This document shows positions 516-7,312 of a stretch of 31,485 nucleotides of DNA, piece after piece (positions within the stretch are counted from its first letter, which is position 1; each line of letters opens with the position of its first letter). This DNA is from a virus (lineage: Duplodnaviria; Caudoviricetes). The notes beneath the pieces were generated by a model. The model was not told the DNA's origin. It saw only the letters and a program-made list of their open reading frames with translations, and did no database searches. The translations under genes were made by a program, and so were the position numbers. The stretch spans positions 1 through 31,485 of the IMG/VR virus record IMGVR_UViG_3300044512_000254. One strand, written 5' to 3'.

Positions 516-544
516 TTGCTTCGGGGCAAGTGCCTCGGTATAAT
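516..544 (+). promoter_or_regulatory. sigma70-type promoter
   Basis: TTGCTT (516-521), 17-nt spacer, TATAAT (539-544), at the start of a ~300-nt intergenic region. Confidence 0.65.
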
Positions 545-716
545 GACCCCAGCAGAACACAGGACAATTAGTAAAAGAGCTGATAAATATCAGATAAAAT
601 AATATAACTATTTGTCAAGGGATATGGAGAAACACCAGCGTAAATAAAGTTTAAAGATAACCTGCATGAAACTCCCCCGAACCATACAGACATCATTGCG
701 ATTGTATGTGTAAATT

Positions 717-752
717 CCCACTTGCTAGTTGATGGGTACAAACTAACTAGCA
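717..752 (+). ncRNA. predicted H-type RNA pseudoknot, copy 1
   Basis: P1 CCCA 717-720 / UGGG 733-736; P2 UGCUAGUU 723-730 / AACUAGCA 745-752; followed by a U-rich tract. Confidence 0.65.
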
Positions 753-805
753 CTTTTATTAACCTTTAGTTCTAAGGAACTATAATAACTATGGAGATAG
801 TAACT

Positions 806-1231
806 ATGTCAAAATTGATATACAGCAGAAATGGTAGCGAGACTACTGAAAGCATTCGTAATGCATCACCTACAATTCAAGCAGTATGGGATCAAGCACA
901 TAAATTTGGTGCTAATATTGTAAGAGTTAGATCAGAAAAGAATAGATTTGGTGCTGACACAGGTCGTACTTTTAATTCTTTTCACAATGGTAAGGTATCA
1001 GTCTACAAGCAAAAAGATCAAGTGCATGAGAGTAATGCCTTGTACTTTGCTCAGAAGATACCTGTAACTAAAGCAAACACAGGTATGCAAATACTTGAGG
1101 TAGCTTCTAATCTTGATGTCCAAGATACTTTGGATACTATTGATGCTATTCAATATTATTCAGAGACTTCTTTTCTAGGAAGACTTTGGAATCGTATTAG
1201 ATATGGTACTCCCATGTCTATCACAGCCTAG
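806..1231 (+). CDS. hypothetical early protein
   Basis: ORF 791..1231. ATG 806 is preferred because GGAGA (793-797) lies at SD distance. Confidence 0.8.
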   Translation: MSKLIYSRNGSETTESIRNASPTIQAVWDQAHKFGANIVRVRSEKNRFGADTGRTFNSFHNGKVSVYKQKDQVHESNALYFAQKIPVTKANTGMQILEVASNLDVQDTLDTIDAIQYYSETSFLGRLWNRIRYGTPMSITA

Positions 1232-1253
1232 CACATAGCGTATCTATGTTGAT

Positions 1254-1302
1254 GGTGCTAATGAGGAAGTTGGTAGTTATCTTTCGCACCTAAAAACTAC
1301 CA
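1254..1302 (+). ncRNA. predicted H-type RNA pseudoknot, copy 2
   Basis: P1 GGUGC 1254-1258 / GCACC 1286-1290 plus GGAAG 1265-1269 / CUUUC 1281-1285; P2 UGGUAGUU 1271-1278 / AACUACCA 1295-1302. Confidence 0.7.
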
Positions 1303-1335
1303 TTATTTTAACGCTAATATTTATGGAGATATATT

Positions 1336-1785
1336 ATGGCACAGATGAGAGTAAAAGACCAAGACCTAATCATAGAGCAGGTTGTAGAAAAAATTGAAGC
1401 TACTGAACTTGATAAGTTCAAAGCTCGTGATGATGTTCAATCTATTCAAAGTGTAATTGAAGCAAGGATTGAAGTAATTTCAAAACTTGTAGACCAATAC
1501 AAAAAACTTGAAGAAAATATTAAAGCTGACCAAAAAGAACTCGAAGCTTTAGTTAAATCATTTCAAGAAGCTAATGGGTTTGAGACAGCTCTTTACTATG
1601 ACAACCAAGGTATTAAATTACAGGGTGTTAGTTATGGATTCGGAGTTCCTACTTATGAGTTAGTTTGGAACTTACCTCACAGCACCAAGCGTGAGTTATC
1701 TACTAAACTCAGACTGCAAACGATAAGTGGAGACTTTGATGTCTACAAACTTATTGAGGAGTTGACTACAGAGTTTAGTTCGTAG
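1336..1785 (+). CDS. hypothetical early protein with coiled-coil segment
   Basis: 149-aa ORF with GGAGA SD and a heptad pattern in its middle. Confidence 0.8.
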   Translation: MAQMRVKDQDLIIEQVVEKIEATELDKFKARDDVQSIQSVIEARIEVISKLVDQYKKLEENIKADQKELEALVKSFQEANGFETALYYDNQGIKLQGVSYGFGVPTYELVWNLPHSTKRELSTKLRLQTISGDFDVYKLIEELTTEFSS

Positions 1786-1791
1786 TATAAT
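1762..1791 (+). promoter_or_regulatory. sigma70-type promoter
   Basis: TTGACT (1762-1767), 18-nt spacer, TATAAT (1786-1791), overlapping the end of the upstream gene. Confidence 0.55.
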
Positions 1792-1905
1792 TTGTCCGAG
1801 GAACTATCTGCGAGTTTCACAATGATTGTTGCAACAGTCGTGGAACTAAAGAGGAGAAGGACAAGACTCATCAGTACCTAGAGTATGAGTATAAAATATG
1901 ATTAG

Positions 1906-1939
1906 GTGTAGGTTGGTAGTCCTACATAAAAAACTACCA
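1906..1939 (+). ncRNA. predicted H-type RNA pseudoknot, copy 3 (preQ1-I-riboswitch-like scaffold)
   Basis: P1 GUGUAGG 1906-1912 / CCUACAU 1921-1927; P2 UGGUAGU 1914-1920 / ACUACCA 1933-1939; A-rich linker; about 10 nt upstream of the SD AGGAG. Confidence 0.75.
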
Positions 1940-1960: not shown

Positions 1961-2173
1961 ATGAGCTTGATGTTAGATACACCCGAACAAATTCAAATGG
2001 CTAGGTACTTGACCATGAGGTCTGGTCTTAAATTAGAGATACAAGGACTACGCTTGACAAGAGGAGTCTCTTGCTATAAGATGGTCAAAGATACTTTCGG
2101 ATTGAAAGGCTCGAAACAAAAAGTCTTAGATCAATTTGAAGATTTGCTTAGAGAAGCAGGAGTAGAAGTATGA
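1961..2173 (+). CDS. hypothetical early protein
   Basis: 70-aa ORF with AGGAGA SD. Confidence 0.8.
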   Translation: MSLMLDTPEQIQMARYLTMRSGLKLEIQGLRLTRGVSCYKMVKDTFGLKGSKQKVLDQFEDLLREAGVEV

Positions 2174-5560: not shown

Positions 5561-5679
5561 ATGATATAGAAAAATTACTAAAAGATAAACTAGCCAGTCA
5601 AGGTATAGACAAGGCTTGGTTAGATAGTCATCTTGAAGTCTTAACAGACGATGACGATGATGATGAGGAAAACGAATGA
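5557..5679 (+). CDS. small protein with poly-acidic tail (40 aa)
   Basis: Not in the ORF track. ATGA overlaps on both sides; ends ...LTDDDDDDEENE. Confidence 0.65.
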   Translation: MNDIEKLLKDKLASQGIDKAWLDSHLEVLTDDDDDDEENE

Positions 5680-6173
5680 ACATATTTTATTTTGATGAAT
5701 GTCCTACCATATCAGCAGAAGCACAGCCTGATAAGATGTTAGTCAAGATGCCACTTGAAACAGCACAGATGTTATGTACAGCACATAGGTTGTTAGATGG
5801 TGATGAGTATGCAGATGCTAATGGTTTGTACAAAGAAGCCTACAAGAATCACCCATGTACTATATGGGCTAGAGAATCTAGCTCTAACTACTCATGGTTG
5901 TACCGACACTTCTTAGCATTAGGTTCAGAGTATGAGTATAGATATGGTAGGAAACATGCAAGTGTTGTAAAGCTAGAAGACCCGTTAAGTAAAATGCCTG
6001 ACAACATTACACATACAAGCATGACACCACTAGCACAGGCTATGCCTGAGGAGTATAAGAATGAGGATGCTATCACTGCTTATCGTGATTACTGCATTAA
6101 CGAAAAACACTATGCCAAATGGGAACGCAATAGAACTAAGCCTATATGGTGGACAACACAGGAGGTTGCATGA
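5676..6173 (+). CDS. pyrimidine-dimer DNA glycosylase (DenV/endonuclease V)-like protein
   Basis: Motifs MNIFYFD...KMPLETAQML...YKNHPCTIW...EYEYRYGRKH...QAMPEEYK. Confidence 0.7.
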   Translation: MNIFYFDECPTISAEAQPDKMLVKMPLETAQMLCTAHRLLDGDEYADANGLYKEAYKNHPCTIWARESSSNYSWLYRHFLALGSEYEYRYGRKHASVVKLEDPLSKMPDNITHTSMTPLAQAMPEEYKNEDAITAYRDYCINEKHYAKWERNRTKPIWWTTQEVA

Positions 6174-6414: not shown

Positions 6415-6530
6415 TGAGTAACCAAACATATCAAGCCCTCTATCTCCAATTGAACAGATGGTTTGGTGCAGCTAATGCTGTAGCTTTTAGGGTAGCTACT
6501 CACAACCCTTCCAACTTCACAACAAAGCTA
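6415..6530 (+). ncRNA. structured 5' leader of ssb (candidate cis-regulatory RNA with pseudoknot)
   Basis: Stems ACCAAAC/GUUUGGU, GCAGC/GCUGU, UAGCUUU/AAAGCUA and AGGGU/ACCCU. Loop UACUCA (6497-6502) is complementary to UGAGUA (6415-6420). Confidence 0.6.
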
Positions 6531-6548
6531 TAAAAGGAGGAAACGCAT

Positions 6549-7282: not shown

Positions 7283-7312
7283 GGCTAGGTGTAAAAGCCT
7301 AGCCACTTTTCT
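7283..7312 (+). terminator. probable intrinsic terminator/attenuator hairpin
   Basis: GGCTAGG 7283-7289 / CCTAGCC 7298-7304 stem followed by ACTTTTCT. Confidence 0.6.

What the first reader, a model, noticed from the sequence alone, without database searches (positions are those of the whole stretch)
717..1939. Family of three covarying H-type RNA pseudoknots in consecutive early intergenic regions
Seen: each of three consecutive spacers holds the same architecture shortly upstream of the next gene's SD: P1-5' / 1-2 nt / UG(G/C)UAGU / P1-3' / A-rich linker / ACUA(C/G)CA / U-rich tract. Copy 1 (717-752) is CCCA-cu-UGCUAGUU-ga-UGGG-uacaaacu-AACUAGCA. Copy 2 (1254-1302) is GGUGC..GGAAG-u-UGGUAGUU-au-CUUUC-GCACC-uaaa-AACUACCA. 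Copy 3 (1906-1939) is GUGUAGG-u-UGGUAGU-CCUACAU-aaaaa-ACUACCA. P1 is entirely different in sequence in each copy yet always pairs. P2 shows a compensatory G-C to C-G swap. Each copy is also preceded by a small CAU...AUG hairpin. Inference: selection acts on RNA structure, pointing to a repeated phage RNA device. It could be a nuclease block or processing signal that stabilises early mRNA segments, a protein-binding translational operator, or a decoy RNA against host defence (type III ToxI antitoxins are also small H-type pseudoknots). I do not recognise it as a described motif.
Basis: partly seen in the sequence, partly recalled or inferred. Interest (0 to 1): 0.88.

Follow-up and report, generated by a model that had tools for sequence, protein, structure and literature searches.

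The report
Portable tmRNA-type RNA knot in phages
Three ~35-base stretches between the early genes of a marine phage are copies of a small, predicted knotted RNA fold whose base pairs are kept by compensating changes across many unrelated phages and which also ends some phage ribosome-rescue RNAs (tmRNA); it likely works as a portable barrier against RNA-degrading enzymes, but this is untested.

Summary
The three pseudoknots are real (717-752, 1265-1302, 1906-1939; 3 found against 0.095 in shuffles). They belong to a phage family, P1-(U)1-3-UG(G/C)UAGU-(U)0-3-P1'-A-rich-ACUA(C/G)CA. Selected on one stem, the other still pairs in 72 of 96 viral matches (permuted 26) but only 16 of 116 bacterial ones (permuted 21). 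No Rfam family matches the window.

The same geometry closes alphaproteobacterial two-piece tmRNA (42 of 45 ends), and 8 phage tmRNAs end in the exact family sequence. Elsewhere the knot sits 2-7 nt before tRNAs, right after promoters, or between a stop codon and a promoter. It occurs in a podophage clade, Kyanoviridae and Schitoviridae.

These contexts argue against a gene-specific operator, riboswitch or strong terminator. They best fit a compact RNA-decay barrier that would cap upstream RNA and slow RNase E scanning downstream (0.5; inferred, no RNA ends mapped). The spacers are stacks of swapped RNA modules, including a second pseudoknot type. The scan noted what reads as the same family on other DNA (e1-5914765, e1-6317749, e1-9729842, e1-6126863).

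The parts
717..752 (+). Pseudoknot copy 1: P1 CCCA/UGGG, P2 UGCUAGUU/AACUAGCA, A-rich loop 3; 12 coaxial pairs
   Evidence: a family knot precedes the orthologous gene in 18 of 19 loci, 6 distinct forms; pairs counted
1265..1302 (+). Pseudoknot copy 2: P1 GGAAG/CUUUC, P2 UGGUAGUU/AACUACCA; 13 coaxial pairs
   Evidence: the orthologous spacer holds a family knot in 12 of 17 loci and a GGGUA/UACCC variant in the other 5
1906..1939 (+). Pseudoknot copy 3: P1 GUGUAGG/CCUACAU (GUAGG/CCUAC when the upstream knot is folded), P2 UGGUAGU/ACUACCA
1866..1908 (+).
   Evidence: 10 sequences, 98% of cells paired, 3 pairs changed on both sides, 0 of 500 shuffles reach the covariation score; sequences were picked by a pattern that fixes part of the stems
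619..678 (+). Conserved irregular stem (GGG/CCC, GAG/CUC, A-rich internal loop, C-loop-like bulge [label recalled]) in the leader before copy 1
   Evidence: 14 sequences; inner helix 100% paired with 4 of 5 pairs changed on both sides; 22 viral stretches match a pattern of it
563..616 (+). Stem with AAAAGAG / AUAAAAUAAU internal loop and an inner hairpin; stems vary in sequence between relatives
   Evidence: read by eye; pairs not counted
683..708 (+). Hairpin before copy 1; structure kept, sequence replaced in relatives
1229..1260 (+). Hairpin starting at the stop codon of the upstream gene, before copy 2
1792..1864 (+). Module closed by UUGUCC/GGACAA, holding a variable insert; in L156 the insert is itself a family-like knot
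516..544 (+). Predicted sigma-70 promoter (TTGCTT-17-TATAAT); TTGACA at the same place in L085, L087 and L091
   Evidence: sequence; not listed by the consensus scan
1762..1791 (+). Promoter-like site (TTGACT-18-TATAAT, 11 of 12); weak, since the -35 lies in coding sequence and the scan finds 31 sites against 26.6 by chance
753..805 (+). U-rich unstructured tract and GGAG Shine-Dalgarno after copy 1 (likewise 1303-1335 and 1940-1960)
806..1231 (+). Early gene of unknown family after copy 1 (ORF listed from 791)
   Evidence: no PHROG or Pfam match, 19 viral relatives
1336..1785 (+). Early gene of unknown family after copy 2
1961..2173 (+). Small gene after copy 3 (phrog_19182, unknown function)

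Best explanation
The three elements are copies of a compact, predicted H-type RNA pseudoknot with the same geometry as the knot that ends two-piece tmRNA, and phages likely use it as a portable barrier to RNA decay at the borders of genes and RNAs. Shown: sequence, covariation, strand, contexts and the link to tmRNA ends. Inferred: the two stems stack (12-14 pairs here), the 1-3 U of loop 1 and the A-rich loop 3 pack into the grooves, and this explains the fixed UAGU/ACUA core. Inferred: after a cut just 3' of the knot (RNase P before a tRNA, RNase E in the U-rich tail) or after 3' trimming, the upstream RNA would end in a knot with almost no single-stranded tail for PNPase, RNase II or RNase R. 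Inferred: on an uncut or 5'-cut transcript the knot would hinder RNase E scanning into the next ribosome-binding site. Each early cistron would thus be insulated from decay begun in its neighbours, and the swapped stacks of modules would tune cistron lifetimes.
For: Structure: P1 pairs after selection on P2 alone in 72 of 96 and 61 of 99 viral matches (permuted means 25.7 and 27.1, maxima 37 and 45) and 30 of 57 metagenome matches (17.5, maximum 28). Bacterial genomes are at chance (16 of 116 against 20.6). The outer P2 pairs are complementary in 22 of 24 clade sequences anchored only on the core, in 7 combinations (permuted 6.2, maximum 13). 78 of 78 model matches in 66 loci are on the coding strand. 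Loop 3 takes a ~75-nt insert in L017.

3'-end contexts: 42 of 45 alphaproteobacterial tmRNA ends have this geometry against 36 of 1763 random segments. The family sequence is the last element of 8 Rfam-confirmed phage tmRNAs (L109, L208, L213, L411, L414, L560, L594, L595). 12 of 120 copies end 2-7 nt before a tRNA, and so does L605 at this clade's own second spacer. L460, L466 and L479 (related to each other) lie 3-5 nt after a stop codon with a -35 box at +1.

5'-end contexts: 9 of 123 copies lie within 35 nt of an upstream sigma-70 consensus; in L141 and L176 the knot begins 6 and 12 nt after the -10 box.

Precedent: H-type knots of 8-15 coaxial pairs impede RNase E scanning in E. coli in proportion to length (PMC9943677, passages). 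3'-appended pseudoknots are used to stabilise pegRNAs (PMC10575697 passages; listing).
Against: No RNA end was mapped: the only runs offered were contigs, which cannot show ends. Ordinary frameshift pseudoknots do not stall Xrn1 (PMC10321173, abstract), so an H-type knot is not automatically an exonuclease block. I found no paper giving a protective role to the tmRNA terminal knot; the two primary papers tried were not held. A knot that forms the whole leader of a pre-tRNA (L141, L634, and the cyanophage group L430/L475/L485/L522) has little upstream RNA to cap. The near-fixed UG(G/C)UAGU sequence across hosts may mean a binding partner rather than pure stability. T5's annotated stable RNAs, some abutting tRNAs, do not end in such a knot (0 of 8). 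In 47 of 60 clade copies a Shine-Dalgarno and ATG follow within 70 nt, which a translation role explains equally well.
Confidence: 0.5

Rival explanations
1. The knot is a landing pad for ribosomal protein S1 or the 30S subunit and, with the U-rich tract, boosts translation of the next gene.
For: It is the last structured module before the U-rich tract and Shine-Dalgarno in most clade spacers. 61 of 120 wider copies have a start 16-71 nt downstream. The tisB standby pseudoknot is needed for S1 and 30S binding (PMC7708055, abstract).
Against: Copies before tRNAs, at tmRNA ends and before promoters lead to no start codon. At this clade's second spacer a tRNA can stand 4 nt after the knot (L605). 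The ribosome-binding sites are open and carry strong GGAG, so they need no standby site.
Confidence: 0.13
2. The knot survives decay as a free ~35-65 nt RNA that acts in trans as a decoy for a host or defence protein that recognises tmRNA-type or antitoxin-type pseudoknots.
For: Promoter-knot-tRNA arrangements (L141, L634, L430, L475, L485, L522) would release little more than the knot after RNase P cleavage. The sequence is fixed across phages of different hosts, and several copies sit in the early region.
Against: No Rfam type III antitoxin match at E<=10 and no tandem near-identical repeats. There is only one model match per genome in nACB1 and Melnitz. No sign of abundance was obtainable.
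Confidence: 0.12
3. P2 plus the U-rich tail is a partial intrinsic terminator that attenuates early transcription, as the stem-loops of PeSL cassettes do.
For: The three window copies have 5-6 U in the next 8 nt. Some copies lie between a stop codon and a promoter. PeSL stem-loops terminate in vivo (PMC2839356, passages).
Against: Only 17 of 123 copies have 6 or more U in the next 8 nt, and U content is higher before genes (0.53) than elsewhere (0.41), so the tract goes with initiation regions. tRNAs 2-7 nt and starts 16-37 nt downstream need read-through. The terminator scan lists none of the three.
Confidence: 0.08
4. The knot is a gene-32-like operator on which a phage protein (for example the ssDNA-binding protein) nucleates and shuts off early translation.
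For: T4 gene 32 has the same topology (4 bp, 1 nt, 7 bp, 0, 5 nt, then an AU-rich leader), and gp32 binding there is documented (PMC3014915, section 24).
Against: The model does not match T4. None of 47 clade ssb leaders has the family knot; 8 have a different knot with a long loop 1. The element spans phage families with unrelated ssDNA-binding proteins and many non-coding contexts.
Confidence: 0.07
5. The knot modifies elongating RNA polymerase or blocks Rho, in the manner of put or EAR antiterminator RNAs (both recalled, not checked).
For: Some copies directly follow promoters and lie ahead of long early operons.
Against: The tmRNA-terminal and pre-promoter positions gain nothing from it, and promoter-proximal copies are a minority (9 of 123).
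Confidence: 0.05

Closest known systems
3'-terminal pseudoknot (PK2) of two-piece tmRNA, alpha/beta type (tail of Rfam RF01849 and RF01850; PMC3985003 passage says the coding piece has PK1 and PK2 around the tag)
   Same: H-type geometry, 1-4 nt loop 1, almost no loop 2, A-rich loop 3, ACUU-like tail. 8 phage tmRNAs carry the family sequence at this position, 9 of 123 family members keep the ACAGA loop-3 signature, and phage tmRNAs show intermediates (GGGAGAU, GGUAGGU, GGUAGCU).
   Different: Bacterial copies have a G-run/C-run P2, so the model does not match them. The window copies are detached from any tmRNA and are repeated between protein genes. Homology against convergence is not settled.
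T4/T2 gene 32 translational operator pseudoknot (PMC3014915)
   Same: Stem and loop lengths; AU-rich leader to the start codon.
   Different: Different P2 sequence; single copy at ssb in T4; here absent from ssb leaders and common in non-coding contexts.
preQ1-I riboswitch aptamer and its engineered 3'-cap derivative evopreQ1
   Same: Size, topology and A-rich loop 3 (recalled); use as a 3' protective cap (PMC10575697).
   Different: No Rfam match; loop 2 is 0-3 nt, mostly U, with no conserved C to pair a ligand; no queuosine genes follow.
PeSL cassettes of T4-type phages (PMC2839356)
   Same: Repeated structured elements between early ORFans that are swapped between relatives.
   Different: PeSLs are promoter plus G/C hairpin terminator, and the word pseudoknot does not occur in that paper's main text. 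Here the module is a knot, often without a promoter.
Coremin / xrRNA-WCC of RNA viruses (PMC10321173)
   Same: Small hairpin whose loop pairs with an A-rich spacer ending in CUAC; a nuclease-blocking role.
   Different: There the second stem is 3 bp or non-canonical and a downstream hairpin is required; here P2 is 7-8 bp and is usually followed by an open U-rich tract.

Membership tests
Two-piece tmRNA terminal pseudoknot | H-type geometry with short loop 1, near-zero loop 2, A-rich loop 3 | tested here: met
Two-piece tmRNA terminal pseudoknot | Lies at the end of a tmRNA coding piece | tested here: not met
   No tmRNA in the window; met for 8 family members elsewhere
Two-piece tmRNA terminal pseudoknot | G-run/C-run P2 and GCAACAGAA loop 3 | tested here: not met
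   Window copies have UG(G/C)UAGU and other A-rich loops; the model misses 23 of 23 bacterial tmRNA loci at E<1
Gene 32 operator | Pseudoknot plus AU-rich leader | tested here: met
Gene 32 operator | Upstream of the ssDNA-binding protein gene | tested here: not met
   0 of 47 clade ssb leaders hold the family knot; no model match near 6549
Gene 32 operator | Bound and repressed by the protein | not testable with these tools
   needs binding and reporter assays
preQ1-I / SAM-II type riboswitch | Rfam model match | tested here: not met
preQ1-I riboswitch | Conserved ligand-pairing C between the stems (feature recalled) | tested here: not met
   loop 2 is empty, U, UU or UUU in 80 of 94 cores
Type III antitoxin (ToxI-like) | Tandem near-identical pseudoknot repeats beside a toxin gene, or a mimic of them (recalled) | tested here: not met
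   single copies with unrelated P1; no Rfam match at E<=10
Intrinsic terminator | Hairpin followed by a 7-8 nt U tract | tested here: inconclusive
   5-6 U of 8 in the window copies; 17 of 123 family-wide have 6 or more; not called by the scan
Coremin / xrRNA-WCC | Second hairpin directly after the knot | tested here: not met
   40 nt downstream fold at -6.0, -3.7 and -1.2 kcal/mol in the window; family mean -4.0
Coremin / xrRNA-WCC | Stalls a 5'-3' exoribonuclease | not testable with these tools
   needs an in vitro assay
TYMV-type tRNA-like structure | Unpaired, invariant 3' CCA (recalled) | tested here: not met
   the last bases pair and covary: CCA, GCA, ACA, UCA, GUA, GGA
Frameshift pseudoknot | Inside a reading frame after a slippery site | tested here: not met
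   window copies are intergenic; 6 of 120 lie inside same-strand ORFs
PeSL cassette | Strong sigma-70 promoter and terminator stem-loop in every unit | tested here: not met
   no promoter predicted in the second spacer's 105 nt beyond 9-of-12 sites, and no terminator call

The most novel reading that the evidence does not exclude
Phages have detached the terminal pseudoknot of two-piece tmRNA and spread it as a standard part: the first natural bacterial-world RNA module that blocks decay from both sides, and, where RNase P or RNase E frees it, a stable mini-RNA that titrates a host factor (S1, SmpB-RNase R or a defence nuclease) during early infection.
Probability: 0.2. Interest if true: 0.85.

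Novelty: new variant of a known kind. Interest (0 to 1): 0.6.

Why it matters
If it is a decay barrier, it shows how AT-rich phage transcripts are partitioned and stabilised without terminators or RNase III hairpins. It would give a job to the little-studied last knot of alphaproteobacterial tmRNA, and supply a natural ~30-nt stabilising cap for synthetic RNA. Cultured phages carry it (Methylophilales phage Melnitz, Acinetobacter phage nACB1, Synechococcus phage SynMITS9220M01), so the question can be tested directly.

Tried and rejected
Rfam: nothing at gathering in the window; four irrelevant matches at E<=10 in 330-2200.

Cultured relatives: blastn of 330-2200 against cultured phages gave only short chance matches. 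There is no convincing family copy in HTVC103P (one weak opposite-strand match, E 0.07), T4, or the first 50 kb of T5. The T5-like blast hits are not knots. In 41 Pelagibacteraceae-family genomes the model gave only weak matches (best E 0.004, 7 genomes); I did not examine them.

RNA evidence: metatranscriptome contigs cover parts of the region but may be DNA, and they break at variable or repeated places, so I drew nothing from their ends or depths. Where the tmRNA molecule ends relative to its knot was not determined.

DNA-level inverted-repeat site: rejected (G-U pairs, strand bias, variable spacing, loop-3 insert).

The short ORF at 544-603 is not conserved.

Two of my own errors, discarded: a misregistered structure string (redone) and a regex bug that gave 7 of 19 (redone as 18 of 19).

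Literature: nine completed searches (minus none failed; one search did not run) turned up no description of this phage motif. In Fremin et al. 2023 (PMC10690425) four short motif strings were absent from 6 supplementary files, but files 1, 2 and 4, which likely hold the alignments, were not searched, so the motif may be among their unnamed candidates. Sharkady and Williams 2004 and Gaudin 2002 were not held.

Full report
Setting. The window is a 31.5-kb record of an uncultured phage with a T7-like primase/helicase, family A polymerase and ribonucleotide reductase on the + strand and virion genes on the - strand. The best cultured primase matches are HTVC103P-type pelagiphages at about 45% identity, so the host is unknown. 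Runs holding the region are mostly marine. The finding lies among small genes at the left end, taken to be early genes from their position (inference).

Observation. The three elements are present as described. A generic H-type scan gave 3 in 331-2200 against a shuffle mean of 0.095 and a maximum of 1 in 200; over the whole window it gave 9 hits on both strands. Nested folding finds one stem or the other, with z-scores of -0.3 to -1.9, so single-sequence energy is not the evidence. Rfam has no match. A model built from 17 non-window copies ranks the three copies first. Copy 2's supported core is 1265-1302, the CAU...AUG sequence of the preceding hairpins is not conserved, and the third hairpin is part of a second pseudoknot.

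Family in the clade. In 99 related loci plus the window, a family scan gave 110 hits, 105 on the coding strand, 43 distinct (some loci overlap). The gene after copy 1 is preceded by a family knot in 18 of 19 loci, and the next spacer holds one in 12 of 17 with a variant in the other 5. The spacers differ widely in length and content: they are stacks of hairpins and knots that are swapped between relatives, and the family knot is usually the last module before a U-rich tract and GGAG. Anchoring only on the core, the outer P2 pairs are complementary in 22 of 24 sequences in 7 combinations (permuted mean 6.2). On 17 in-register copies, chosen for having P1, all 5 P1 pairs and 2 of 7 P2 pairs change on both sides (descriptive, because of that choice).

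Family beyond the clade. Pattern scans that fix only P2 and part of loop 3 found an estimated 530 and 360 viral stretches, of which 121 each were returned. P1 pairs in 72 of 96 and 61 of 99 distinct matches against permuted means of 25.7 and 27.1; a stricter cut gave 56 of 96 against 19.9. A metagenome replicate gave 30 of 57 against 17.5. The same pattern in bacterial genomes gave 16 of 116 against 20.6, that is chance. Cultured carriers are Acinetobacter phage nACB1 (Schitoviridae), Methylophilales phage Melnitz and Synechococcus phage SynMITS9220M01 (Kyanoviridae); the last was found by BLAST and script, not by the model. In 94 cores, loop 1 is mostly U or UU, loop 2 is empty or U-only in 80, and loop 3 ends in purines (a few are reverse-strand reads of the same element).

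Link to tmRNA. Several viral matches lay at the end of permuted tmRNA genes. Of 45 alphaproteobacterial tmRNA loci fetched (30 of 79 and 12 of 28 matching genomes, plus 3), 42 end in a knot of this geometry against 36 of 1763 random segments. Their P2 is a G-run/C-run, so the sequence-weighted model misses them. Eight Rfam-confirmed phage tmRNAs end in the family sequence itself, and intermediates exist. A review states that the two-piece coding piece has PK1 and PK2 around the tag (PMC3985003, passage). The fold is therefore known in one context; descent against convergence is open.

Contexts. Of 123 distinct cores, 120 had enough flank. Of these, 12 end 2-7 nt before a tRNA, 61 have a Shine-Dalgarno and start 16-71 nt on, 4 have a -35 box at +1, 7 have TATAAATA within 50 nt, 6 lie inside same-strand ORFs, and 41 have none of the first four. 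The set includes some chance matches and related sequences, and the -35 class (4 of 120) is not above the random rate (2.8%). Nine of 123 follow a promoter consensus within 35 nt; in L141 the knot is the whole leader of a tRNA. In L605, an 84%-identical relative at the second spacer, a tRNA follows the knot by 4 nt. Only 17 of 123 have 6 or more U in the next 8 nt. None of 47 clade ssb leaders has the family knot.

Mechanism. What follows the knot can be a gene, a tRNA, a promoter or nothing, and what precedes it can be a stop codon, a tmRNA tag or a transcription start. A property of the RNA itself fits this better than a gene-specific control. I commit to a two-sided decay barrier (0.5): a 3' cap after RNase P, RNase E or trimming, and an obstacle to RNase E scanning. 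The second half has direct precedent for knots of 8-15 coaxial pairs (PMC9943677, passages); the window copies have 12-14. The first half rests on position and on engineered 3' caps (PMC10575697, passages). Against: no ends were mapped, frameshift knots do not stall Xrn1 (PMC10321173, abstract and parts 1-3 of 6), T5's stable RNAs lack the knot, and the fixed core sequence may indicate a partner. Rivals are an S1 landing pad (0.13; PMC7708055, abstract), a free decoy RNA (0.12), an attenuator (0.08; PMC2839356, passages), a gene-32-like operator (0.07; PMC3014915, passages and section 24) and an antiterminator (0.05).

Novelty. I found no catalogue entry or paper for the free-standing phage motif in ten searches. 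The alignment files of the largest phage RNA screen could not be searched (PMC10690425, passages and 6 supplements). Also read as passages: PMC3968760, PMC11915505, PMC2704228. I reached the tmRNA link; notes of this scan seen later describe what reads as the same family on other DNA, and they are not independent support. Verdict: a real and widespread new variant of a known fold, with function inferred only; interest 0.6.

Noticed in passing
window 619-678: Covarying irregular stem with an A-rich internal loop and a C-loop-like bulge; it moves with copy 1 in front of different genes (L013, L016, L055, L059, L077); no Rfam match.
   Followed up: partly
window 563-616: Stem with an AAAAGAG / AUAAAAUAAU internal loop whose flanking stems change sequence between relatives.
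   Followed up: partly
window 1866-1908: Second pseudoknot type overlapping copy 3 by 2-3 nt; a second UAGGU at 1909-1913 could pair instead and break copy 3's P1, but relatives favour the first partner.
   Followed up: yes
window 6420-6548; L031, L038-L042, L045, L046: The leader of the ssDNA-binding protein gene has its own conserved structure (CCCUCUAUCUCC motif; in 8 relatives a knot UGGGG/CCCCA with CAUAGC/GCUAUG), a candidate autoregulatory operator.
   Followed up: no
L017:3733-3853 (also L018, L027): Family knot with a ~75-nt insert in loop 3, closed by its own AGUUAU/AUAACU stem.
   Followed up: partly
L111, L113, L114, L193, L214, L524:1500-1611: In T4-like aquatic phages including Melnitz, a 70-110 nt structured RNA starting GGGUGCAGUUCGUAAGUC and ending in the family knot lies between a promoter-like site and a TATAAATA site ahead of the small heat-shock gene; no Rfam match.
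   Followed up: partly
L133, L138, L140: A related GGC..UUCGUAAGUCC RNA with a family knot follows what reads as a ribosomal protein bS21-like gene (identified by eye).
   Followed up: no
L121:~1530-1900, L128, L155:1360-1528: A 115-200 nt structured RNA with a GUUGCAAC-containing hairpin inside phage tRNA arrays, ending in the family knot; window 1822-1846 holds a similar GAUUGUUGCAAC string.
   Followed up: no
L561, L569, L597, L612, L618, L627, L635: Family knots preceded by short reading frames ending like tmRNA tags, near tRNAs; of these, five were scanned with short flanks plus L597 and L618, and none gave an Rfam tmRNA match. Possible divergent tmRNAs.
   Followed up: partly
L141:1543-1618, L634: The tRNA directly behind a promoter-knot leader has a CUA anticodon (amber suppressor-like).
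   Followed up: no
L025:3330-3650, L097: A 300-nt spacer packed with at least five different pseudoknots in tandem.
   Followed up: no
window 7283-7310: Bidirectional terminator-like hairpin between the ssb region and the primase gene, conserved in relatives.
   Followed up: no
window 5676-6173: Pyrimidine-dimer DNA glycosylase-like gene (PF03013) in the early region.
   Followed up: no
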